A stretch of DNA of 64,000 nucleotides from Obrimoposthia wandeli. Taxonomy: Eukaryota. This document shows, piece by piece, positions 1 through 51,366 of this stretch (position 1 is the stretch's first letter; each line of letters starts with the position of its first letter). The stretch lies in assembly GCA_977020255.1 (NCBI GenBank), contig CDROCS010001334.1, positions 248,001 through 312,000 on the forward strand. The letters are read 5' to 3'. Both the position numbers and the translations under genes were made by a program. The notes under the pieces are model-generated. The model saw only the letters and a list, made by a program, of their open reading frames with translations, was not told the origin of the DNA and did not search any database.

Positions 1-267
1 TTATTTATTATGTTTACCCTCAGCCTCCGAAACAACCATACTGTTGTTATTTGACACTGTAAATGCAATATGCCTTTCATTTTCAAACTTTATAAGGCAA
101 TTAGGGAAAGGTTTTAATCTAAATTTTACATTCTTCGCGCCAATGCTGTCGTTTTAAATGTTGAATTACAATTTCTGGAAAATGAACAAATCAGTAAACC
201 ACTTATTTGTTCTGATTTGTTTATAAAGTTTAGAACCTCATAATAATTCAGTGATGTCAGATATTGA

Positions 268-525
268 CGCAAAGATAAATATCTACCATTTTACAAGTTA
301 ATGTCCCAAGTAGATTTCTGTGATGAATTCGAAACCAAATATCCATTTTTCACGTTTGTTTTAGCCCCTGACTTTGATATCACGCAAAACCAATTAGCAA
401 AACAGGGTAATTTACGCCTTGACATCAAGTTTCACAAGTCATTAACAGTCCCAACAAACGTACTGATTTACGGGATTTTTGATTCTGAGTTTGAAATAAC
501 TAAAGGCCGACGTGTGATTGTATGA
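268..525 (+). pseudogene. C-terminal fragment of Polinton major capsid protein (double jelly-roll)
   Basis: FTFVLAPD...GNLRLDIKF...VLIYGIFDSEFEITKGRRV resembles the Polinton MCP C-terminus; frame closed upstream by stops at 265-267 and 244-246. Confidence 0.65.
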
Positions 526-579
526 AGTGAGTTTTTTAATTTATGTTTTAAGATTTTATTAACAACAAGTACTGTTCAG

Positions 580-903
580 GTGAATGAAATAACTAGTTTG
601 CTGCTCGGACCGCGATTTAAGGGTGTATACCCGTTGGAAAAAATCCCAACATTAACGCCTGGGGGATATATTGTCAATACACATACCTCAAATCTTCCTG
701 GAGAACACTGGATTGCGTTATTCGTGAGACGGAATTCTGTACATGTGTATGACCCTCTTGGAGTATACTATCCGGGAAAACTTATCAAGCATGTAGAGTC
801 TCAAGGAAAACATGTATATTACAACAAAATTCGTTCTCAAAACCCACTGACTACTAATTGCGGTCCACTATGTATCTTATGGTTGTATGATCAAACTATA
901 TAA
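580..903 (+). CDS. Adenain-like (C5-type) cysteine maturation protease
   Basis: FKGVYP, IVNT...PGEHWIALF (His), YDPLG (Asp), Q...CGPLC (Cys); starts at GTG right after an acceptor-like TTCAG; AATAAA motifs follow. Confidence 0.85.
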   Translation: MNEITSLLLGPRFKGVYPLEKIPTLTPGGYIVNTHTSNLPGEHWIALFVRRNSVHVYDPLGVYYPGKLIKHVESQGKHVYYNKIRSQNPLTTNCGPLCILWLYDQTI

Positions 904-1151
904 ATGTCAAACCTTTTTATTTGTGTTGATTGGTAATAAAATTTGTATTCAAAATCGTATTTGTTTTATAAATAGCTGTCCCATCGAAATTAAATTTTTT
1001 TTTGAGTTTTGATAAATTAAAAAATAGATTTAAAATCTACTAATTAAGAGAAAATTAATGGTGTTAATTATTTTTAAAAATTTAAAGTTTAACGGTGTGA
1101 ATATCGGTTATGAAAATATTCATAATTGATTGACCGTAATTAACCTTTATG

Positions 1152-1279
1152 ATCACGTGTGTAGCAACTAGGGAATAAAGAGTCTTTATTACGCATTCCT
1201 AGTTTGTAAGTACACACGTGATGTGTGACGTGTACATCTAGGGCAGCAACTACAATTGTGATTGTGAACCATATATAAA
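1152..1279 (+). promoter_or_regulatory. Putative promoter of the Ubl/PolB gene: imperfect palindrome with two CACGTG boxes plus TATA box
   Basis: ATCACGTGTGTA (1152) ... TACACACGTGAT (1222) with nested inverted pairs; TATATAAA at 1272-1279 upstream of a 5'-UTR intron. Confidence 0.5.
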
Positions 1280-1363
1280 CAATCAGTGTAGTGTCATTTA
1301 TCAATTTCCACACAATTTCGAAAAGTAAGTATTTTTATTATTTTTATTTAATTTTTTTTTTAG

Positions 1364-2623
1364 ATGTCAAAAATTATTTTCGCGTACAATGCTAAGAAAA
1401 GATGGACGATGAAGCCTGTAGTGGCTGATGATGATGATGATGATGTCGACTTGGATGCGACACCTGTGAAGAAAAGTAATTTTGATTATTATTATTATTT
1501 TTAATTTAATTTAGCAATGCAGAGTGTCACACCACTGCCAATATCAATCGCACCATGGCTTTCAACAGAATATGATGCTCCTACTAAGAAAAGAAGCCGA
1601 AAGCAGAAAATGTCAACAACAACAACAACAATATATGATGATGATGATGAAAAGAAGAAAATGTCAAAAGTTTTTTTATCTCCTGAGAAATCTTCTCACT
1701 CTCAACTTCCTTCTTCTTCTTCATCTTCTCATTCTCATTCTCCATATGATAATCATTTATATAAACTTTTTGGGGATATAAGGGATATAAAATCTTATTC
1801 TCCCGACTGCGATAGCTGCCCGGTAACGCGGGGCAGTCTAACTCCTGGAATGGGGTCGCAGAATAAGTTAATTAAATCAAGAGGTTACCCCTTACTTTTT
1901 AAACCAGGAACACCTGTTGGGTCACCTGTTAATTCAGTAGAAAATTTCAACGTAAATGAGATATACTCGGGTTTTGAAAATATCCCGTTTAAAAAATATT
2001 TTAATCAATTAAAGAAAGTAAAAAATCAAAATATTGATTTAAGTAAACTTAAAACAGAAGGTAGGAAAGGTAAAAGATTTCGTCAGAAGCTGCGTAGATT
2101 GAGAAAACTACCAGCAGATATAACAATATTTGCAAATTTATTAGGGTCTTGCAAACCCATTAATATTAGTCCAGGTCTGAAAATTACAGATCTGGCAAAT
2201 AAATTATATGAAGTCTTTGAGACTGATCAAATTTATTTTAACCGTAATGGCATGCCCTTTGAAAGGGAAGCTATTATCGGTGATGTTTTACATGAGGGGG
2301 CTATTATCCATGTATACCCTAAACTTCGTGGAGGAAGTAACTTATGTACATTGTACAAGTATTGCACAAACGCTAATCATGGAATAGAATGTCATAGTGT
2401 AATGCTTAAATATTATAAATTTAAAAGCGGTTTTATTTGTCCACATTGTGATGTGTTATATTGTATTGACTATCAAACATTTTATAATGATCATAAGGAT
2501 CATCTGACGTATTTTAAGTCTAAAAAGTCAGCATACAAACGTAAAGTAATGAGAGTACCAACAATAGACAACAATAAAATAGCAAAAAAACTAATAATTT
2601 TACTGAAGAGTTTGATGTGGTAG
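1364..2623 (+). CDS. Spliced Polinton gene (exons 1364-1475, 1515-2623): low-complexity N-terminus, ubiquitin-like domain ending LRGG, Cys/His-rich domain
   Basis: 39-nt GT-AG intron 1476-1514 joins MSKIIFAY...PVKK in frame to the 368-aa ORF. 2120-2335 aligns by eye to ubiquitin (IF..G..I..P..I..K..DQ..G..D..IH..LRGG). Confidence 0.75.
1807..1861 (+). ncRNA. Candidate 55-nt structured RNA element, copy 1 (inside the Ubl ORF)
   Basis: CTGCGA/TCGCAG closing stem with two internal hairpins; 51/55 identical to 6710-6764; TATAAA at 1786. Confidence 0.4.
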
Positions 2624-2768
2624 ACTCGTGGGAACCGGATAGTGTTGTAGAAATTGATACTTATCCTGAAGTTGTAGAAATTATTGAGCCTTTAAGCCCT
2701 AATGAAATCTTAAATAATAATAATATTGATGAACTTATAGATCAGGACGAGTTTATAACAGAAAATGA

Positions 2769-5700
2769 TTTTTCGACTCACTCCTAACTATTACGGATGA
2801 TGACTTTGATAATATTGTTACAATTAATTCAGATAATACATTAACTTTTAACAATCAAATAGGAGGTGCAATTCAATCAAACCTTGTTTTTGATGTTAGT
2901 GGATTAAACATGCTTAAACTATACATTAACGATACTATGCTAACTGAACTTACTAGCAGTATAGATGTGTTTGGTCCCTGTAAAATACAGTTTGGTGTTG
3001 AAACCGAATTTGTCAATAACGAGGGTCAACATAAAACATGGCATGTAAGCTGTAAAGCAAATATTTTTGAACAAGATTTTATCACTACAAGAACAGTTGA
3101 GCTCAACAATAAAATTGAAATTTATAAGGATATGAGTTCGGGATGGTCAGTATTTAAAATTCTGTTGGTATCCTTTAAATTTACCGCACTTTCAAACGTA
3201 GCAGGATCATCATTTATAAAAACCCCGGTTGCGCTTGCTAAAACACTATCTATAGTGAACGTAAATAATACTGATGATCAGTGTTTTAAATACGCTGTTC
3301 TCAGTATCCTACACTATAAAGATTTCAATCGAAACAGACAAAGAGTTGAAAACTATAATGATTATTTAAATGAACTTATATGTGAGCCTGGTCCTATGAG
3401 GATAGACGGTATCAAGGCGTTTGAAAAACTCAATAATATAGCGATAACAGTATTCTCCTATAAACCTACAAAGGTAGAGCCTCATAGTAGTCATCTAGTG
3501 TTTAAAAACCCAGATGTTAATGTTATTTATAGAACGAGTCTTAAACAGTGCAAAAAAGTAGTAAACTTGTTGCTGTTGGAACAGAGCGGTAATTATCACT
3601 ATACAGGGATTACAAACCTGAATAGACTTTTAAATACTCAAAAATATAATGTGCGTCTCTTTTGGTGTGAGAAATGTCTTTTTGGATTTCGAACCACGAT
3701 TTCATATGACAAACACAGGGCACATTGTAATATTAATACAGATTTAACAACCTTGTTTACAATGCCTAAAGAGATCAAGTGTCAATTTTCCGACTGGTCT
3801 AAATCTATTGTGCCACCATTTGTTGTATATGCCGACTTTGAGTCAATACTCGAGCCACATAATACTTTCAAACACCGATATTCATAAACCGATATCTATA
3901 GGGATGATTTTGAAAAACAACACTAATAATTCAATACAATATTTCAGTTATTACGGTCTGCAGTGTGCTAAAAACTTTGTAGATAAATTAACTGAGTTGA
4001 TAAATGGTGAAGTGGCAGATTTTTGGGTAAATAGTATTAATGTTCCTATGGTTTTTACTAATAATGACATGTTAAACTTTAGAGATTGCACTAATTGCTA
4101 TCTTTGTAAAAAATTAAACGATCGTATGGTTAGAGATCATGATCATATCACGGGTAAATACTTGGGTGCGGCATGCAACAAATGCAATTTAAGTCGCAAG
4201 TTTGCAAAGAGACCGGTTTTACCTGTGGTGTTTCATAACCTTATGGGTTATGATATACATCATATTTTAAAATATGCCGACTTGAAAGGTAAATCCTTTT
4301 CAATTATCCCTAAATCAAGTGAAAAGTTCATGTCCCTCCGTATAGAGATGAAGAGGGGGACATTGAAATTCATTGATTCATACCTTTTTACAACGTCAAG
4401 TCTTGAATCCTTAGTTTCATACTTGCCAAGTTGCCCTTATACTACACAATACCTAAACCCTAATATTGCAACAAGTAAGGCGGTATTTCCATATGAATAT
4501 ATTAGTGGTGTTGATAGGCTTATGGAGACGCAGTTACCCGCTAAATCTGAGTTTCCTTCTCGAGTCACTGATCAACAATATAATGAAGCCCTAATGATGT
4601 GGACCGTATTAGGGTGTAATACTATTAAAGACTACATGCTTGAGTATATGAAACTTGACGTGTATCTCTTATGTGATGTTTTTGAGGCCTTTAGACAGAA
4701 AGTAAGGGATGATGATAATCTAGAGGCGCTCAATTTCTTTAGTATCCCTGGTCTCAGTTGGGCTAGCGCATTAAAAACATTAGAGTATGATGTGGATTTA
4801 TTGCATGATCCCGAAATGTATAACATGTTTGAGACAGGGATACGGGGAGGGATGACTTTCATCAATAAACATTACGTTAAAACAACAGATGAAACATTCC
4901 TCCTATATATTGACATAAATAACTTATATGGCTGGGCCTTGAGTCAACCGTTACCACATACAGATTTTACATGGGTATATGACGGTTTTGAAGCGATAAT
5001 TGAGCTTATAACTGAGAGGGATATTCACGGTAATATGCAGGACTTGAGTCTTAAAGAACATGGATACTTGTTGGAAATTGATTTAGGCATACCCATCAGT
5101 ATTCATGATAAACTTGATGACTTACCGATTGCGCCTAATAGAGAAATCCCTCCCGGCTCAAAAGCTATTGATGACCCATGAGGATAAAAATAATTACATC
5201 ATACACTCACAACTATTACAATTTTACTTGTTTCTGGGTGCAGAAATTAAACAAGTGCATAGAGCAATAAAGTTTCATCAAGCTCCTATATTTAAAACAT
5301 ATATTGATATCAATAGCCGGAAACGGGCAGAGGGTACTACTACATTTGATAAAGAGTTTTATAAACTCAAAAATAATTCAATATATGGTAAGACAGTGGA
5401 AAATCTTAAAAAGCGTAAAGATATCCGTCTTACCAAGAATGATCGTCAGTTTACTAAACTTGTTTCAAGCCCTTGGTTTAAGAAGCATACCCAAATAACC
5501 GACAATCTCAATCTTTTATTTATGCAAAAGAAAGAAATTTGTCTGGATCGCCCATCATATATTGGTCAAGCTGTGTTGGACTTATCTAAACTACGTATGT
5601 ACCAACTACAGTATAGTGATCTTGACCGGTATCGTAAGCAATATCATTGTGATATCAACATAGTTGCAATGGATACAGACTCGTTTTTCTTAGAGTGTAA

Positions 5701-6130
5701 GCATATAGATAAAGATGTCCTCTTAAAACAAATGATTAAAGATCAGATGTTAGATACGAGTAATTACCCGATCACACATGAGTTATTTAACGATTCTCTT
5801 CGAAATGTGATTGGAAAGTTTAAAGATGAAAGCAAGGGGACAGTGCTTTATGATGAATGGGTATTTCTGAAACCTAAATGCTACTCATTGAAAACGAGTA
5901 TGAGGGCTAAGGGTATCTCCCTTAAACAAACCGAAATCAGACATGAGCATTACATAAAGTGTTATGTTGATGATGAAATTATAACTGCCGGTCAGACACG
6001 TATTTTATCTCGCAATCATCAATTATTTACAATGTATAATGATAAAATTGCGTTAAGGTGTTATGACGATAAAAGGGTTTGGCTTGAGAAAAACAAATCC
6101 GTCGCATATGGACACTATAGTCTAAGATAG
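2769..6130 (+). CDS. polB: Protein-primed family B DNA polymerase, frameshifted at ~3866 and ~5161
   Basis: Exo I YADFES, Exo II FHNLMGYD, Exo III YMKLDV, Pol A YIDINNLYG, Pol B KLKNNSIYGK, Pol C DTDS; EndoVII-like CYLC..RDHDHITGKY.GAAC..CNL; N-terminal SGW..GSSFI..N.DDQCF region. Frame is open from 2769. Confidence 0.93.
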
Positions 6131-6410
6131 GTGTATATAAAATCTGGGGTAACCTCTTGAAAGTATTAACTAATATCCTCTTATTTTTAATGTGATAGTA
6201 TGTATCTTTTTAAATGCAATAGTATGTATATATTTTTAATGCTATAGTATGTATATATTTTTATTGATGTTTATTTTTAATACATTGTATGTATCATAAC
6301 CATGTCTTGACTTCCTACTAGCTACTCATTGGATAATTTCATTGGATAATTTTAACAAATTCTCTATAAATATAAACACATTTCAATCAACCAATTTCTC
6401 ATTATTTCAA

Positions 6411-6650
6411 ATGACTACTTCTAAAGAAAAATTGCAAGCTCTCTATGATAACCTGAGTCCTACCTTGATGACTCAGTATACTGAAAAGTACTTTAGTTTA
6501 TTTGTTGCACCAGAACTTTTTGTCTCAAGGATTGAAGAACTTTATATGTATCACCTGTTTAATGGAGACTTTAAACCTAAAGTTGCAACAATCATTAAAA
6601 TAGAAGAAAAAGAAAGCATGGATTGTGACAATGAATATAATTATGTATAA
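6411..6650 (+). CDS. Small Polinton orphan protein (79 aa, MTTSKEKLQ...)
   Basis: ATG at 6411 about 45 nt after TATAAATATAAA; coding-like composition; no recognised motif. Confidence 0.45.
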   Translation: MTTSKEKLQALYDNLSPTLMTQYTEKYFSLFVAPELFVSRIEELYMYHLFNGDFKPKVATIIKIEEKESMDCDNEYNYV

Positions 6651-6709
6651 ACATAGACTTTTTTTTTACTAAACTCCTACTATAAACAATAACGTTTCTT
6701 ATGATAAAA

Positions 6710-6764
6710 CTGCGATAGCTGTCCGGTTATGCGGGGCAGTCTAACTCCTGGAATGAGGTCGCAG
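6710..6764 (+). ncRNA. Candidate 55-nt structured RNA element, copy 2 (intergenic)
   Basis: Same fold; the four differences fall in a loop or keep pairing through G-U; TATAAA at 6681, AATAAA near 6788. Confidence 0.45.
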
Positions 6765-7030
6765 TACTAAGTAAATTAAATAGTTGCAAATAAAATTTGG
6801 GACGGTCAATTGTGTTTAATTTCAAAATTTTAATTTTTAATTTTCATATTTAATTTTCATATTTAATTTACGAATTAAAATTTTAATTTTTTAATTTTCA
6901 TATTTAATTTGAATTAAAATTTTTTAATTTCCATATTTAATTTTTAAATTTTTGAACTATATACTTAATGTTACAAAATATTAACCTACATAATCGTAAG
7001 TGACGCATAAGACCAAACAAATTTCGAGAC

Positions 7031-7208
7031 GTAAAGTGTCGGTTCTAAAACAATAGCACACAAAGCCCCCCCCCCCCCCGAACAAGGCACAAGGCACAAG
7101 GAACAAAGCACATCTGTATGACTAAACAAATTTCAGATGTGCTTTGTTCCTTGTGCCTTGTTTGGGGGGGGGGCTTTGTGTGCTATTGTTTTAGAACCGA
7201 CACTTTAC
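7031..7208. repeat. Long inverted repeat (86/75-bp arms, 17-nt spacer) with C-run and G-run
   Basis: 7031-7116 is the reverse complement of 7134-7208 except for one extra AGGCACA unit and homopolymer length. Confidence 0.92.
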
Positions 7209-7417
7209 ACTTCTAATATAGAATCACCACTGGGGTCAACAGTTAACCAACGAGACGGTAATCTACGCCCTGATACATTCATAGGATTATCGTCGACGTA
7301 GATTAATTCCGGCTTGGTTTTGCTTATTTCTAGTCTTGGTTTTACCAGATTAGAGAGATGTGTCCCCTTCCGGCCACCCCCCCCCCTAGCGAAAACCGAT
7401 AATTTTTTTTTTGGGCG

Positions 7418-7917
7418 GTCACTTTATACTATAATACGGCTGTTATTAGGTGATTTTGGTCTAAATTTATATGTTTTTGTTTAAACACATCAATTTTTAT
7501 GCCCACAAATTTAAAAACATACTACAACACGTATATTTTTCAAGATAATTATTAATGAAGGTCACATTTTGTTATAATACACATGATTTTGAGGGTTAAA
7601 TTCATATTTATGTCACTTTATACTATAATACGGCTGTTATTAGGTGATTTTGGTTTAAATTTATATTTTTTTGTTTAAACACATCAATTTTTATGCCCAC
7701 AAATTTAAAAACATACTACAACACGTATATTTTTCAAGATAATTATTAATGAAGGTCACATTTTGTTATAATACACATGATTTTAAGGGTTAAATTCATA
7801 TTTATATCACTTTATACTATAATACTTCTGTTTTTAGCGGATTTTACTCTAAAATAAGATGTTTTTGTTTAAACACATCAATTTTTATGCCCGCAAATTT
7901 CAAAACATACTATAACA
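7418..7917 (+). repeat. Tandem repeat, 194-bp unit x ~2.6
   Basis: (G/A)TCACTTTATACTATAATAC recurs at 7418, 7612 and 7806. Confidence 0.9.
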
Positions 7918-8172
7918 CTAGAACTCAATCACTTGATATTAATCAAAATGTGTTAATCTTTATTAAATCCAGAACTCAATAACTCGACTTTAGTCAAAAT
8001 ATGTTAATCCATATTAATTCTAGAACTCAATCACTCAATATTAATCAAAATATGTTATTCTTTATTAATTACAGGACTCAATCACTCGATTAAAATTCAA
8101 ATATGTTAATCCATATTAATTTCAGAATTCAATCATTCGATTGAAAATCAAAATATGTTAATCCATATTAAT
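7918..8172 (+). repeat. Diverged ~51-bp tandem repeat x5
   Basis: GAACTCAATCAC...AAAATATGTTAATC recurs five times. Confidence 0.75.
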
Positions 8173-45651: not shown

Positions 45652-46663
45652 CTGCATACAGATGAGTAAGCAGTAAAAGCACAATGATACCATCTATACT
45701 ACCCCTGGAAAAGTCAGTTTAACAGTATGTTGAAATTTTCTGTTGATTTTTATTATTAATTCATAACACTTCCGATATATGTCTAAATTATCCATCACTA
45801 ATTCTGAAATTTCAACCAGATAGTTCTAACATTTTGTGAATTATTAAGTAAGTTATTCAAATTTTTAAATACTATTTTTGAGTCACCTTTGCAGTTGTCG
45901 AATACATTTATATAATATTTGTATTTTTCTAATAAAGTGAATGATTTAATTTCAAGCGTTTAAATACTGAATCTTGCTTTATATGTTATTCTGAGTGTTT
46001 ATAAGAAATGATTTGTATTTTCTTGTTATTTCAGTCCTATCATCTGGGACTTTCGAAGTTATTTCTAATATGTATTTCAGTGATTTAGATTTTTAAAATT
46101 TAAATTAAAGATATAAATCAAAATTAATTAATTGTGATCTGATATTATATACTGATCCCCAACAGAAACATTCATTAGTGGAAATTAGATTCATCGGTAA
46201 TCAATAATACCATGACATGTCCCCTGATTTGTATTGGAGAATGAATATAATTCTTGAAATTGAATATATTTAAAACAGACATAAATACTATTGTACTTTT
46301 CATGGTATCGACACCCATTTGAATATTAAAAACTTGTATAATTAATACAGTATCTTTCTTTGATTAAATACATTTTATGAAATCCTAAAATTAATCAAAA
46401 GTGCTAACTGACAGCGATGGTGATCTGAATATTATAATGAGTAATAAGAGATTATTTGTAAAAAAATTGGAAGCCCTTCGCTTTTTAATTTGCGCTACAA
46501 ACGCTATCAGTGCTGTACATCAACGTCCTCATTTGCCAAAAATAGGATTGAACCAGTTACAAATTATAGCGGGAATTATATATACAATTAATCGATCTAG
46601 GCCAACCTTCACAACGCAAAATGGGTTTGGTAACTAGATCCACTGAATATATACTTTATACTA

Positions 46664-47420
46664 CATCTGACTCCACTGAACGATGATGTGAGTCAGGTGA
46701 ACAGTGATGGCCAATTCATACAGTTGAGTTGAGCTAGGTTATTGATACAGCTAACTGTATTTTGTAGCTTATTTTTCGTTCGTGATTAATTGTGATCTTT
46801 ATAATCACGTTAAGAAACGAAAACATAAATATTTTGCGAAGGGGCTTTTAAGCCTAATATGAACAGTCATTGAATACGGTATATAAAGAAAAAGTAAGAT
46901 TTTTTTTTAAAAGACCATTAATCCCTAAAATAAATTCCTAATCCATTTTTCTTCAATTAAGCGTTTCACATAATCTCGATGTAAGCCTTTTGCTCTTTCC
47001 AATTTTTTTGAATCAGATCAAACGATTTTGAAGCTGTAAAGCTTACCCTTTATATATTTCGCCACAAGTTTGGACCTTGAGAATATTTGTCAGTTTATCG
47101 GTAAATTATGTCTTCGTCAGTTTCATATGCTCTTATTAAGTGAGCTTTATCAGACAGAAGAACCCTGATTTTAAAATTAAATTTTAAAAATAAATAACTT
47201 ACATTTGAATCTTATTTTTCTTACATGGCATGGTTTCTTCAAAATTTACAGATACATTTTCTATGAAGGAATAGTATCATTTTCATTGTCAGATGATACT
47301 GTCAAAATAAAAGCTAGTAACTTACAGTTCAACGTTATTTGAGGTCCCCGGAACATAAACTTCTTGTAAAATAGTATCATGGTTCATTTTCCTTATCACA
47401 GTTAGAATGAAAATACTTTC
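46664..47420 (-). mobile_element. Diverged internally deleted copy (A) of the DD30E transposon
   Basis: Starts TA-CATCTGACTCCACTGAACG; contains patches homologous to the transposase gene; right end replaced by copy B. Confidence 0.75.
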
Positions 47421-47422
47421 TA

Positions 47423-48241
47423 CACCTGACTCAACTGAACGGTGATGTGAGTCAGGTGAACAGTGATGTAGTGACTGTATTTTTGTAGCATATTTATCAG
47501 CTACATATTTTTGTTTTCGTTTGTGATTAATTGTGATCTATATGATCACGTTATGAAACGAAAACTTAAATATTTCGATAATGATATATAATTAGTTTTC
47601 GTTTGTGATTAATTGTGATCTTTATGATCACGTTATGAAACGAAAACTTAAGTATTTTGCGAAGTGGCTTTTAAGCCTAATATGAAGAGTCATTGAATAC
47701 GGAATAAAAAGAAAAAGTAAGATTTATTATTAATTTTTTAAATACCATTTATTCCTAAATTATATTTTTTATCCATTCTTCAATTAAGCGTTTCACCTTT
47801 TGCTCTTTCCGGGTTTTTTTAAAATTTCGGTATCGATAAATTATGTCTTCGCCAGTTTCATATGCTCTTATTAAGTGAGCTTTATCAGACAGAGGAAACC
47901 TGATTTTAAAATTAAATTGAAAAAATAAATAACTTACAATTGAATTTTATTTTCCTTACATTGTATGTAAAATAGTATCACGGTTCATTTTCCTTATCAC
48001 GGTTGAAATGAAATTACTTTCTATAGTATAAGATATACATGAAATCACATACAGTACCTTGTCTGTATGTGTATGTGTGTTTCTATGTTTGTATCACCGT
48101 TGATTTTCCTTATCACGGTTCATTTTGAAGTTAGTGTGCGGATTCCTATACTAAGTATTATTTATTTTACCTAAAATTGAATTAATTTATTATAGGTAAT
48201 TCAAAACTCTGACGATTATCACCGTTGAGTTGTACTAGGTG
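47423..48241 (-). mobile_element. Non-autonomous copy (B) of the DD30E transposon
   Basis: TA-CACCTGACTCAACTGAACGGTGAT ... ACCGTTGAGTTGTACTAGGTG-TA. Confidence 0.88.
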
Positions 48242-48597
48242 TATAGTACACCTGACTCAACTGAACGGTGATATGAGTCAGGTGAATTATGATGCATGCA
48301 ATATTTGCATACACATAATCAATAAATGAGTTGAAATTCTAGTGTATTACAGTTTTTGTATACTGTATTTGTAGCTATGTATGGTTTCGTACATGATTAA
48401 TTGTGATCTTTATGATCACATTATGAAACGAAATCATATATAATCTCATAATTATATTTATTTATAATGATATAGTTTTTGTTTGTGATTAATTGTGATC
48501 TGTATGATCACGTTATGAAACAAAAACATCGCAATGGAATGGAATGGAAAGTAAAAAAGTAAATGTAAGTCTTTTATTATTTATTAATTTATTTGTA

Positions 48598-49335
48598 CAC
48601 CTAGTACAACTCAACGATGATAATCGTCAGAGTTTTGAATTACCTATAATAAATTAATTCAATTTTAGGTAAAATAAATAATACTTAGTATAGGAATCCG
48701 CACACTAACTTCAAAATGAACCGTGATAAGGAAAATCAACGGTGATACAAACATAGAAACACACATACACATACAGACAAGGTACTGTATGTGATTTCAT
48801 GTATATTTTATACTATAGAAAGTAATTTCATTTCAACCGTGATAAGAAAAATGAACAATGATACTATTTTACATACAATGTAAGGAAAATAAAATTCAAT
48901 TGTAAGTTATTTATTTTTTCAATTTAATTTTAAAATCAGGGTTCTTTTGTCTGATAAAGCTCACTTAATAAGAGCATATGAAACTGGCGAAGACATAATT
49001 TATCGATACCGAAATTTTAAAAAAAACCCGGAAAGAGCAAAAGGTGAAACGCTTAATTGAAGAATGGATAAAGAATATAATTTAGAAATAAATGGTATTT
49101 AAAAAATTAATAATAAATCTTACTTTTTCTTTTTATTCCGTATTCAATGACTTTTCATATTAGGCTTAAAAACCACTTCGCAAAATACTTAAGTTTTCCT
49201 TTCATAACGTGATCATATAGATTACAATTAATCACAAACGAAAACAAAAATATGTAGCTGATAAATATGCTACAAAAATACAGTCACTACATCACTGTTC
49301 ACCTGACTCACATCACCGTTCAGTTGAGTCAGGTG
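48598..49335 (+). mobile_element. Non-autonomous copy (D), inverted, nested in the full-length element
   Basis: Reverse complement of copy B apart from a ~90-bp duplication in B; TA duplicated at 48596-48597 and 49336-49337. Confidence 0.88.
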
Positions 49336-49346
49336 TAAATAAAACA

Positions 49347-50410
49347 TCAATCTCCTAAAATATCCTCTTTATCTAGGCTTCTTATAAAAAATTCTTGAAT
49401 ATGCTTATAATAATTCTTGAGGTTGGCATACTCTTTTTTTCCTATTTCTTCACTTATAACTGTCTGCATCGCTTCAATTCTTCCTGATATTGTCTCTTGC
49501 AGTCCAGAACTATTCATCTGCCTTCTTATGTGTGATTTCAGCTTTGAAAACACTGATTCTATTGGATTGAGGAAGGGACTGTATGGAGGTAGATTAACGA
49601 TCTTCTTGTTTTCATTTGGTAGAGTTATACCTCTGTGGATTGAAGCATTATCATGAATTAAATAGTGCTTTAAATGAGGCTCGAGCTTCTCACAAACCTC
49701 CTGAAGAAAAGCAATATATTTCTCTTTATTGAAGGAGCCCTTCACAATCTTAAAGTGAACAGGTCCGGCCTTTTGAATGGCCAAAACCAGGCTTATGTTA
49801 GGTCCTCTGCTGGTGGGAATCATCGAATATAGCCTTTCTCCTCGTGGTCCCCATCCTCTTTGACTTCTCATCCATATGTTGAAGCCACATTCGTCAATAT
49901 AAATGCATTGTTTCGTGGTCCATTTTTCTTCAATTAGGCGTTTCACATAATCTCGACGCAAGCCTTTTACTCTTTCTGAATTTTTCTCTGCAACACAAGT
50001 TCGAACAATTTTGAAGCTGTAAAGCTTACCCTTCAAATAATTTGCCACAGTATTCTTTGTACAAGTTATTGCAAATTTCTGGCCCAGAATTTGCGCCATA
50101 TGATTGAGGGTTAGGAACGGATTTTGATCTATTTCTCTCATCAAGTCTTCTCCAGCTGTATCGGTAATTTTATGAAAAGAACCACCTTTTGGACCTTGAG
50201 AATATTTGCCGGTTTTTCGGTATCGGTAAATAATGTTTCTTACGGTGTTGGGCTTTATTCTTAGGATTTTACCGAGCATAACATAATCTTCGCCAGCTTC
50301 ATAGGCTCTTATTAGGTGAGCTTTATCAGACAGAGGAACCCTGATTAAAACATTAAATAACTTAAAACATCAATAACTTACATTTGAATCCTATTTTCCT
50401 TACATGGCAT
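49347..50410 (-). CDS. Transposase, 340 aa, two exons (50410-50382, 50340-49347), DD30E triad
   Basis: 41-nt GT-AG intron 50341-50381 gives MPCKENRIQMVPLSDK...; IYIDECGFN, IHDNASIH and LPPYSPFLNPIE; no stops or frameshifts. Confidence 0.9.
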
Positions 50411-50852
50411 GGTTTCTTCAGAATTAAAAGAAAAATTTTCTCTGAAAGGAATTGTATTATTTTCACTGTCAGAGGATACATCTATCCTAAAACATTAATA
50501 GACTAAAATAAAAGTTATTAACTTACAGTTCAACGTTATTTGAGGTCCCCGGAACATTAACTTCTTGTAAAATAGCATCACGGTTCATTTTCCTTATCAC
50601 GGTTGAAATGAAATTACTTTCTATAGTATAAGATATACATGAAATCACATACAGTACCTTGTCTGTATGTGTATGTGTGTTTCTATGTTTATATCGCCGT
50701 TGATTTTCCTTATCACGGTTCATTTTGAAGTTAGTGTGCGGATTCCTATAGTAAGTATTATTTATTTGACCTAAAATTGCATTAATTTATTATAGGTAAT
50801 TCAAAACCATGACTATTATCACCGTTGAGTTGTACTAGGTGTATAAGCTTTT

Positions 50853-51037
50853 CATGAAATCACATACATTACCTTGTTTGTGTGTGTATGTGTCTATGTT
50901 TATATCACCGTTGATTTGAGTTATCAAGGTTCATTTTGAAGTTAGTGTGCGGAATCTTTATTTGAACTAAAATCGCATTAATTTATTATAGGTGATTCAC
51001 AACTCTGACGATTATCACCGTTGAGTTGAGCTAGGTG
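50853..51037 (-). mobile_element. Additional terminal fragment of the DD30E transposon
   Basis: Diverged repeat of 50640-50841 ending GTTGAGCTAGGTG. Confidence 0.75.
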
Positions 51038-51366
51038 TTTTAAAAATAGTCTAGTAAATTTCCATGATGAATCAACAAATATATCGAACATTCAATAACA
51101 ACTTAGAGGTTTAAGCTTATGTCACAGCATCCTTCCAATCAATAATTAAAAAACTTTAAAATACAATGGTCAAAACACTAATTCTATTTTATTAAAAACT
51201 GCTTAAAGTTATTCTCTTTATACTCAATCCAAAATTAATTAAACCAAACGTTAACTACAAAGTCATAAAGATAAGTTTTTAATCTGAGTAGATATAATTA
51301 AAAAATAAGCCTCAATGATTGAATTATTGATAAATATTGAAGGAAAAATCAAAATTAAATACGAAC

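What the first reader, a model, noticed from the sequence alone, without database searches (positions are those of the whole stretch)
1807..6764. Two copies of a TATA-preceded 55-nt three-way-junction element: candidate Polinton non-coding RNA
Seen: 1807-1861 and 6710-6764 are 51/55 identical in unrelated contexts (inside an ORF versus intergenic). Fold by eye: P1 CTGCGA/TCGCAG, P2 TAGCTG(C/T)CCG/CGGGGCAGTCTA, P3 CTC/G(G/A)G. All four differences are in the P2 loop or swap Watson-Crick for G-U pairs. Both copies have TATAAA 21-29 nt upstream and a shared TAAGT(T/A)AATTAAAT tail. Inference: a small structured RNA (VA-RNA analogue, ribozyme, or translational/5'-leader element). It fits no hammerhead, HDV, twister or tRNA consensus I could map.
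Basis: partly seen in the sequence, partly recalled or inferred. Interest (0 to 1): 0.7.

Follow-up and report, generated by a model that had tools for sequence, protein, structure and literature searches.

The report
Structured RNA at Polinton ends
A virus-like jumping element (Polinton) of an animal keeps a 55-letter folded sequence right behind its own promoter at both ends and once inside its polymerase gene, and two other Polinton families in the same genome keep relatives of it with matched base-pair changes, so it is likely a small RNA of a kind we found in neither the RNA library nor the papers searched, which would serve as a docking site for one of the element's proteins.

Summary
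Observation confirmed; reading partly supported. The two copies (51/55 identical) belong to a ~15-kb, high-copy Polinton (3,325 exact half-matches genome-wide). Copy 2 is not merely intergenic: it lies at the inner edge of the terminal inverted repeat (TIR), so full elements carry three copies. Copy 1 is in frame inside the spliced pPolB gene. I found diverged relatives at the same TIR position in two other Polinton families of this genome. Five of six P1 pairs and one P2 pair change between families and stay paired; loops L2 and L3 vary. In all three families TATAAACAA, the word that precedes the element's protein genes (it also encodes a TBP-like protein), sits 29-33 nt before P1, so transcription would start at P1 and give a short non-coding RNA. 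No Rfam family, ribozyme core, tRNA or Pol III box fits; there are no homologs in viral or metagenome collections, and no RNA data. Best reading: a promoter-proximal structured RNA that likely binds an element-encoded protein, with the pol-gene copy as a feedback site (0.42). 'Recent duplication without function' is refuted. The third family's homology and the mechanism are inferred, not shown.

The parts
322..7214 (+). Right-hand part of a 5'-truncated copy of a ~15-kb high-copy Polinton (family 1): end of major capsid gene, protease-like ORF, pPolB gene, small ORF, right TIR
   Evidence: Sister copies align from 322 to about 7214 at 93-98%; capsid residues 254-320 at 98.5%; DNA_pol_B_2 E 3e-19; the protease label is read by eye from the sequence
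1274..1282 (+). TATAAACAA promoter word ahead of the pPolB gene
   Evidence: Sequence; the same word precedes other genes of a full copy
1364..6130 (+). pPolB gene with two predicted 39-nt introns (1325-1363, 1476-1514); broken into four ORFs in this copy (1517-2623, 2910-3887, 3829-5181, 5105-6130)
   Evidence: ORF list; GT..AG borders; one sister copy has a single 1508-codon ORF through the element; splicing is inferred
1777..1791 (+). TATA-like words before copy 1: TATAAG at -30, TATAAA at -21
   Evidence: at -30, 45 of 60 copies read ATATAA, 14 read ACATAA, 1 other
1807..1861 (+). Element copy 1 (internal), in frame within the pPolB coding region; an in-frame ATG lies in loop L3 at 1850
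1862..1878 (+). 3' tail of copy 1, partly shared with copy 2; can pair with L2 (4 pairs), not established
6411..6647 (+). Small 78-codon outward ORF of unknown function, ending 62 nt before copy 2; no AATAAA between its stop and the element
   Evidence: Sequence; no Pfam match
6670..7214 (.). Right terminal inverted repeat (about 545 bp); its inner edge lies 11 nt before the TATA word
6681..6689 (+). TATAAACAA, 29 nt before P1: predicted promoter of the RNA
6710..6764 (+). Element copy 2 (TIR copy): P1 = 1-6/50-55, P2 core = 12-15/25-28 (10-15/25-30 in families 1 and 2) capped by 17-23 and 18.22 pairs and a variable triloop, P3 = 36-38/46-48 with variable loop, one purine at 49
6765..6794 (+). 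3' tail and poly(A) words ATTAAA (6775) and AATAAA (6789): predicted 3' end of an RNA of about 100 nt
   Evidence: AATAAA or ATTAAA within 30 nt in 11 of 11 family-1 TIR copies, but not at a fixed place in family 2
7031..7208 (.). Terminal palindrome of the TIR (context, not part of the RNA)

Best explanation
The element is a conserved three-stem fold placed 29-33 nt behind the Polinton's own TATAAACAA promoter word at the inner edge of each terminal repeat, where it is predicted to form the 5' end of a short non-coding RNA that likely serves as a binding site for an element-encoded protein. Shown: position, copy number, conservation across families, compensatory pairs, spacing to the TATA word, no ORF behind it in the TIR, and the in-frame copy in the pPolB gene. 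Inferred: (1) RNA polymerase II starts at P1, as it would about 30 nt behind the same word at the protein genes; (2) the RNA folds as predicted, with P1, the P2 core and its cap, and P3 as the conserved face and L2/L3 as free loops; (3) a protein of the element binds it, the pPolB precursor being the first candidate, so that nascent RNA at the TIR would hold the protein near the replication origins; (4) the copy in the pPolB mRNA would be a second site for the same protein and give feedback on polymerase supply.
For: Selection on the sequence: among 61 internal copies, 1 of 55 core columns carries a substitution shared by 4 or more copies (a CpG site), against 20 of 67, 9 of 82, 16 of 140 and 15 of 240 columns in the flanking coding DNA. 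Selection on the fold: the family-1 TIR copy and a family-2 copy differ at 12 of 48 alignable positions, 6 of them three double changes in P1, none breaking P1, P2 (10-15/25-30) or P3. Family K adds three more P1 pair types and a C-G at 13-27 where family 2 has U-A. On 27 distinct rows of families 1 and 2, 88.1% of cells pair and 18 cells show double changes; 0 of 500 shuffles reach either value. Orthologous place: family-2 copies lie about 70-90 nt behind homologs (31-42% identical) of the same outward ORF. Promoter: TATAAACA occurs 14 times in one full copy against 2.4 expected; 9 of 17 listed sites have the next ATG at +35 to +46; the word lies 30-33 nt before P1 in 23 of 43 family-2 matches, at 32-33 nt in 24 of 24 K rows and at 32 nt in 19 of 22 K2 rows, while the spacer sequence is not conserved with family 1 (4-5 of 20). 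The element encodes a TBP-like protein (PF00352, E 2.8e-13). No ORF over 26 codons starts in the TIR-type copies tested (6 of 6). The internal copy is coding: 16 of 16 young copies in which the splice acceptor was found keep frame without stops over lengths of 298-343 nt. Precedents read: a parvoviral small RNA next to the terminal hairpin recruits polymerases to the origin (PMC11194592), and a family-B polymerase binds a hairpin in its own mRNA (PMC3014915).
Against: No transcript, start site or binding partner was observed; steps 1-4 are inference. Only four lineage states were compared, all from one genome, so the covariation counts are few events; alignment A6 was fitted to the structure, and 30 of the 61 copies had been picked for identity over the core. 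RNAalifold on the decayed rows did not recover P1 or P2 and proposed another hairpin (7-11/16-20), which pairs as well (91.0%). Strand asymmetry of changes in family 2 is not significant (33 C>T against 21 G>A, p 0.13). Model R2 scores family K only weakly (best E 0.15; 8 of 20 K2 loci under E 5, no K1 element), and K was picked afterwards from 561 TATA-followed windows. 18 of 43 family-2 matches have no TATAAA within 60 nt, including the paralogous upstream copies. No such element was found behind pol or the left-ORF homolog in copies of five other families, so it is not needed by all Polintons. Positions 9-11 are kept in K2 although unpaired there, which a DNA-level signal could also explain.
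Confidence: 0.42

Rival explanations
1. It is a stand-alone decoy RNA in the manner of adenovirus VA RNA that ties up a host defence or RNA-processing factor; the pol-gene copy is a captured duplicate.
For: Own promoter, no ORF, junction fold, two copies per element and over a thousand elements. Polintons are targets of piRNA silencing in a planarian (PMC8532177, passages); that this host is a planarian is another agent's guess, not tested here.
Against: No box A, box B or fixed T-run; helices are at most 6-7 pairs, far from a dsRNA mimic; a decoy does not explain why the in-frame copy is held unchanged at synonymous sites.
Confidence: 0.15
2. It acts at the DNA level: positions 9-18 are a downstream promoter word, and the stems fold in the single strand displaced during protein-primed replication.
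For: The 10-nt word at 9-18 is the most conserved part in all three families, even where 9-11 are unpaired; fixed distance to the TATA word; location in the TIR.
Against: A double-stranded DNA site does not need paired P1 arms, yet 5 of 6 P1 pairs change and stay paired; lineage states use G-U type pairs on the + strand only, and one K subfamily caps L2 with a UUCG loop, typical of RNA (established knowledge).
Confidence: 0.13
3. It is a cis element in the 3' UTR of the two outward genes (and in the pol mRNA) for export, stability or termination; the TATA word is secondary.
For: In families 1 and 2 it follows the stops of both outward ORFs by 60-90 nt, with no AATAAA in between in the window; internal and paralogous copies persist with a weak or lost TATA.
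Against: The TATA word keeps a 29-33-nt spacing in three families while the spacer diverges, which a 3' UTR element does not need.
Confidence: 0.13
4. It is a self-cleaving ribozyme of an undescribed class that trims or ends the outward transcripts.
For: Compact junction with invariant junction bases (UAA in J2/3 of families 1 and 2, purine in J3/1); words reminiscent of twister loop L4 (resemblance recalled).
Against: No Rfam ribozyme hit at E up to 10 and no core motif; an efficient cutter would destroy the polymerase mRNA; J2/3 is replaced by an extra hairpin in family K.
Confidence: 0.1
5. It is a recent duplication of a TIR piece into the pol gene with no function.
For: The two copies are 93% identical; after insertion the core decays as fast as its flanks (0.0128 against 0.0093-0.0118 private changes per site).
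Against: Kept at the orthologous place in diverged families with compensatory pairs; no subfamily-level change in the core.
Confidence: 0.03

Closest known systems
Adenovirus VA RNA I/II (PMC7589676, passages read)
   Same: Small structured RNA with a terminal stem and a junction, from a protein-primed linear dsDNA virus of the same broad lineage as Polintons (lineage from established knowledge)
   Different: VA RNAs are about 160 nt, made by Pol III from boxes A and B, end at four or more T and mimic dsRNA; this element is 52-68 nt, has no such boxes or fixed T-run, has short helices, and sits behind the element's mRNA-type TATA word
BocaSR of human bocavirus 1, and EBER2 as described there (PMC11194592, passages read)
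   Same: Small viral RNA encoded next to the genome end and proposed to bring replication proteins to the terminal origin
   Different: BocaSR is a 140-nt Pol III RNA with A and B boxes that recruits host polymerases; here the promoter is TATA-type and no partner is known
HIV-1 TAR
   Same: Structure at the very 5' end of transcripts from a TATA promoter in a terminal repeat, acting as a protein-binding site in nascent RNA
   Different: TAR is a single bulged hairpin ahead of long coding transcripts; this is a three- or four-way junction ahead of a poly(A) word and the element's end
T4/RB69 gp43 translational operator (PMC3014915, passages read)
   Same: A family-B DNA polymerase binds a structured site in its own mRNA; a UAAC word matters there and is kept in J2/3 of families 1 and 2
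   Different: The operator is a 16-18-nt hairpin at a bacterial ribosome binding site; the shared word is short, absent from family K and may be chance
Twister ribozyme (PMC6154101 section 2 part 1; PMC10085705 passages)
   Same: Similar size; a GC..CCGGU..GC run resembling L2/P4/L4 (resemblance recalled)
   Different: No L4 core word, no U-A cleavage loop opposite the general-base strand, no second pseudoknot, no Rfam hit; block order fits no permutation I could map
PKI domain of type II dicistrovirus IGR IRES (PMC4132737, passages read)
   Same: Three-helix junction with a possible loop-to-tail pseudoknot
   Different: No ribosome-binding domains upstream, no ORF behind the TIR copies, and the loop-tail pairing is lost in family K

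Membership tests
Any Rfam 15 family | Covariance-model match at or near the gathering score | tested here: not met
   No match over either copy among 14 at E up to 10 in 1-8000; one partial minus-strand match at E 8.4; family 2: tracrRNA 24.6 bits against 70, E 3.5; family K: none
VA RNA / Pol III viral small RNA | Intragenic box A and box B | tested here: not met
   0 of 7 representative copies match either box (motifs recalled)
VA RNA / Pol III viral small RNA | Run of four or more T at a fixed 3' end | tested here: not met
   First TTTT at +56 to +84 (family-1 TIR), from +11 to absent within 200 nt (family 2), +24 to +26 (K)
VA RNA / Pol III viral small RNA | Long apical dsRNA stem and GGGU-ACCC central pairing; inhibition of a host dsRNA sensor | tested here: not met
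   Stems of at most 6-7 pairs; GGGT..ACCC in 1 of 7 copies only; sensor inhibition not testable
Hammerhead ribozyme (all permutations) | CUGANGA and GAAA core blocks | tested here: not met
   Neither block within the core of 7 copies
Twister ribozyme | L4 core, double pseudoknot T1/T2, U-A cleavage site in L1 | tested here: not met
   No L4 word, no Rfam hit; loop-tail pairing barely above controls
HDV-like ribozyme | Nested double pseudoknot with conserved L3 and catalytic C in J4/2 | tested here: not met
   No L3 word in 7 copies; L3 varies freely between families; J3/1 is one purine
Self-cleaving ribozyme of any class | Site-specific self-cleavage | not testable with these tools
   Needs an in vitro assay
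tRNA or tRNA-derived element | Cloverleaf with T-loop and anticodon stem | tested here: not met
   ARAGORN finds 0 genes in 9 of 9 loci; no TTCRA in any core
Spliced-leader RNA | Splice donor plus downstream Sm site | tested here: not met
   GGU at 16-18 is kept, but no Sm word within 40 nt in 7 of 7 copies (motif recalled)
TAR-like promoter-proximal RNA element | Structure begins at the start site about 30 nt behind a TATA box | tested here: inconclusive
   Spacing met in three families; the start site itself is not mapped
TAR-like promoter-proximal RNA element | Bound by a viral protein in nascent RNA | not testable with these tools
   No protein-RNA tool or data
Polinton/Maverick (the carrier) | TIRs, pPolB, integrase, packaging ATPase, double jelly-roll capsid | tested here: met
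   TIRs; DNA_pol_B_2; rve E 9e-12, Pox_A32 E 6e-7, DJR-like E 0.006 below cutoff

The most novel reading that the evidence does not exclude
Polintons encode their own small RNA: an aptamer made from a TATA promoter in each terminal repeat that tethers the protein-primed polymerase precursor to the origins, while a captured copy in the polymerase mRNA lets the same protein limit its own synthesis. It would be the first non-coding RNA gene of Polintons that our searches could find, a new RNA family evolving between three- and four-way junctions, and an RNA role in protein-primed DNA replication of a eukaryotic virus-like transposon.
Probability: 0.15. Interest if true: 0.87.

Novelty: new variant of a known kind. 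Interest (0 to 1): 0.62.

Why it matters
Polintons are widespread virus-like elements related to adenoviruses (established knowledge), yet six paper searches listed no non-coding RNA for them (titles and abstract starts seen). A conserved RNA with its own promoter at both ends gives a directly testable handle on how these elements are transcribed, regulate their polymerase and possibly evade host small-RNA silencing, and it would add a new structured RNA family. Even without the mechanism, the motif, its boundaries and its natural variants are now defined well enough for one probing and 5'-mapping experiment.

Tried and rejected
No RNA holder listed for window 1000-7000; this blank says nothing on expression. 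The four listed runs are contigs of one sample, possibly the source of the assembly; within the TIR element they show common variants only at positions 13, 24 and 47, not counted as independent support. Outside homologs: protein scan of viral contigs none; exact patterns 0 and 2 hits in viral contigs, 0 in metagenomes; the gapped pattern gave 1 viral and 49 metagenome loci, none with more than 4 of 6 pairs in P1 or P2, and model R2 on 23 of these 50 loci (one or more per distinct sequence) gave at best E 0.71: chance. A double change in P1 of one old family-1 copy (L150) was rejected as covariation: it is a singleton at two CpG sites. An outer stem P0 and a conserved ATTAAA were rejected: older subfamilies lose both. 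A T-loop in L3 was rejected: family 2 has a 4-nt loop. The L2-tail pseudoknot is unproven: pair types change in step at 19 and 21 between lineages, but mean pairs are 4.0 against 3.71/3.75 in controls (TIR), 4.0 against 3.12/2.73 (internal) and 3.69 against 3.65/3.12 (family 2a), and K has no complement. A wider pattern for a further family gave 47 matches against 35 in the reversed control and no new family. A recalled likeness to tRNA-Val words was not tested against host tRNAs and fails the cloverleaf. The atlas look-up of the left ORF gave no answer; Pfam names neither outward ORF. Left-ORF homologs also occur in families without the element, so that protein is not a tight partner. Supplements of the papers were not opened; the figure of twister permutations in PMC10085705 could bear on the twister comparison.


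Full report
1. The observation. The copies at 1807-1861 and 6710-6764 are 51/55 identical and differ at element positions 13, 19, 21 and 47. They are the only 2 matches in the window, against 0.01 expected. Both + strands fold into P1/P2/P3 (z -3.37, -2.17), the - strands less well (z -2.68, -1.47); with flanks the signal weakens. Rfam has nothing over either copy at E up to 10.

2. The carrier. Window 322-7214 is the right part of a Polinton of about 15 kb. Searches of the own genome gave 897 and 1275 first-look candidates for the two copies, 40 scored each; exact patterns for the 3' and 5' halves match 3,325 and 3,160 times, with 0 in the reversed controls. Full copies have TIRs of about 545 bp, and window 6670-7214 is the right TIR. 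Two of three long stretches (C242, C223) carry three elements: left TIR, internal, right TIR; the third lacks its right end. The TIR's inner edge is 11 nt before TATAAACAA in two full copies and one cross-copy comparison. A sister copy encodes a TBP-like protein, a BIR-RING protein, an A32-type ATPase, an integrase and a weakly scoring jelly-roll capsid; the window's pol pieces match DNA_pol_B_2.

3. The internal copy is coding. One sister copy has a 1508-codon ORF through the element into pPolB. In 16 of 30 young copies the second splice acceptor was found; all 16 keep the frame without stops although the distance to P1 varies from 298 to 343 nt; older copies are mostly frameshifted. Among 61 internal copies, 1 of 55 core columns has a substitution shared by 4 or more copies (a CpG), against 20/67 upstream, 3/17 in the tail and 9/82, 16/140, 15/240 downstream, while private decay is the same in core and flanks. 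Caveat: 30 of the 61 had been selected for identity over the core, so the signal rests on the 31 others. Of 20 stretches fetched at the right ends of older copies, 11 held the TIR element, with scattered private changes.

4. Family 2. Model R1, run over 70 loci of other families (648,639 bases), found one diverged match at E 6.5e-4. It belongs to an old family: 146 candidates, 40 scored, 76-84% identical to it; R1 matched 24 times in 30 loci; a gapped pattern gave 41 matches, 0 in control, all family 2 or family 1 with an indel. These copies lie about 70-90 nt behind homologs (31-42%) of family 1's left outward ORF, or behind weak homologs of the small ORF, that is, at the same place; the pol pieces next to some are 44-57% identical, but nesting makes the assignment uncertain. 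The family-1 TIR copy and natural copy L293 differ at 12 of 48 alignable positions: three double changes in P1, one change keeping pair 13-27, and five outside P1, P2 (10-15/25-30) and P3. On alignment A6 (27 distinct rows) 88.1% of cells pair, 18 cells have double changes, 0 of 500 shuffles reach this, and slid structures pair 28-43%; the alignment was fitted to the structure and relatedness inflates the test. Against: RNAalifold on the same rows gave only a 7-11/16-20 hairpin plus P3 at -1.43 kcal/mol; a structure using that hairpin pairs 91.0%; C>T against G>A in stems is 33 to 21 (p 0.13). Four loci hold two copies 530-1200 nt apart in the same direction; in three the upstream copy has lost the TATA word.

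5. Family K. Folding 561 windows behind TATA words in other families brought up a GC-rich element behind pol in the nearest relative (pol 61-68% identical in most segments). It is abundant (2518 and 2008 candidates, overlapping) and lies inside inverted repeats in two pairs examined, one of which is a 1.8-kb inverted duplication rather than a clean TIR. Variant K2 (63 nt) folds by itself into the same P1, P2 core (12-15/25-28, 9-nt cap) and P3 with one extra hairpin. It matches family 2 at 17 of 22 positions in 7-28 (0 of 200,000 shuffles); the five differences are position 7, the pair 13-27 and loop bases 19-20. Across the lineages 5 of 6 P1 pairs take different, always Watson-Crick, forms. 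Variant K1 (68 nt) extends the L2 loop with a UUCG-capped stem. Model R2 scores K only weakly (best E 0.15; 8 of 20 K2 loci under E 5; no K1), so homology rests on register, place and fold; I put it at about 0.85. In the copies of five other families examined no element was found.

6. The promoter. TATAAACA occurs 14 times in one full family-1 copy against 2.4 expected; 9 of 17 listed TATAAAYA sites have the next ATG at +35 to +46, some lying inside the upstream ORF, which marks them as promoters rather than poly(A) words. The same word is 29-30 nt before P1 in both family-1 TIRs; TATAAA is 30-33 nt before P1 in 23 of 43 family-2 matches, absent within 60 nt in 18, elsewhere in 2 (10 family-1 rows of the 53 set aside); it is at 32-33 in 24 of 24 rows and at 32 in 19 of 22 rows of family K. 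The spacer is not conserved with family 1 (4-5 of 20). With the usual TATA-to-start distance of about 30 nt (established knowledge) transcription would begin at P1. Behind it the TIR copies hold only ORFs of 26 codons or fewer; family 1 has poly(A) words at +10 and +24, family 2 none at a fixed place. The internal copy has a weaker word at -30, broken by a synonymous change in 14 of 60 copies, so it more likely works inside the pol mRNA.

7. Mechanism. Shown: a fold under selection, at a start-site position, repeated in a coding region. The simplest single function that works at the 5' end of a nascent non-coding RNA and inside an mRNA is binding of a protein. I commit to an element-encoded partner, first the pPolB precursor, because the TIR holds the origins and the captured copy lies in the pol mRNA; precedents are BocaSR (PMC11194592, passages) and the T4 gp43 operator (PMC3014915, passages). 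Odds: selected fold 0.9; RNA starting at P1 in the TIR 0.7; binding site for an element protein 0.42; pPolB tether plus feedback 0.15. Rivals: decoy 0.15, DNA-level 0.13, 3' UTR element 0.13, ribozyme 0.10, neutral 0.03.

8. Known families. It fails the motif tests for hammerhead, twister, HDV-like, tRNA, SL RNA and Pol III viral RNAs (motifs recalled) and all Rfam models. Papers seen: PMC7589676, PMC11194592, PMC3014915, PMC10085705, PMC4132737 and PMC8532177 as passages; PMC6154101 as outline and the first part of section 2; all others as search listings only. Searches for a Polinton RNA: polinton + ribozyme, 13 papers; adintovirus + VA RNA, 0; four further searches; no listed title or abstract start describes one, and subscription papers are not covered. 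TAR is recalled.

9. Earlier notes of this scan. Found only at the end: e1-8591962 reports the same motif in another piece of this genome with the same promoter reading; it is a repeat, not independent support. I saw a few lines of it, which do not mention other families. e1-8586816 describes a TATA word and a TBP-like gene in another genome's Polinton. e1-9133770 and e1-9220336 describe spliced pPolB leaders, and e1-8577180 calls the host a probable planarian.

10. Verdict. A real, conserved structured element of three Polinton families, probably a TIR-encoded small RNA; not a member of any family tested; function inferred. Interest 0.62.

Noticed in passing
window 1823-1861: From the GT at element position 17 to the AG at 54-55 is 39 nt, the length of the two predicted pol introns and a multiple of three, with a CTAAC word inside; families 2 and K lack the AG, so probably chance, but RNA data could show it.
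   Followed up: partly
window 1850-1852: An in-frame ATG with purines at -3 and +4 lies in loop L3 of the internal copy; the G at +4 is one of the four differences from the TIR copy. It could start a shorter pPolB.
   Followed up: partly
window 2100-2340: The pPolB leader holds a segment ending in LRGG followed by a Cys/His-rich stretch, which looks ubiquitin-like by eye; Pfam finds no ubiquitin match; similar segments occur in several other families.
   Followed up: partly
L037:3109-4355: Family 1 encodes a single-repeat TBP-like protein (E 2.8e-13) and a BIR-RING apoptosis-inhibitor-like protein.
   Followed up: partly
G000, whole genome: A pPolB motif pattern that excludes family 1 matches 13,240 times: the genome is extremely rich in Polintons of many families, often nested.
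   Followed up: partly
L149:3809-3918 and 10 other loci: Family C has a TATAAATAG-preceded GC-rich multi-stem stretch in the 5' part of its pol gene; it may be an unrelated structured element or plain coding sequence.
   Followed up: no
L299:148-199: Type I hammerhead-like match (32.4 bits, gathering 34, E 1e-4) about 1.3 kb from a family-2 element.
   Followed up: no
window 7031-7208: Near-perfect palindrome of about 178 nt at the TIR end; other agents have reported similar hairpins.
   Followed up: no
L065, L045, L363: Some family-1 copies have tandem duplications of the TIR segment with two elements 220, 1922 or 568 nt apart.
   Followed up: no
window 1-321: The stretch before the truncation point does not match family 1 although it reads like capsid-gene DNA by eye; possibly a junction with another Polinton.
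   Followed up: partly
window 46600-51100: Cluster of long inverted and direct repeats (arms up to 438 nt at 97%) around a 310-codon ORF at 49347-50279.
   Followed up: no
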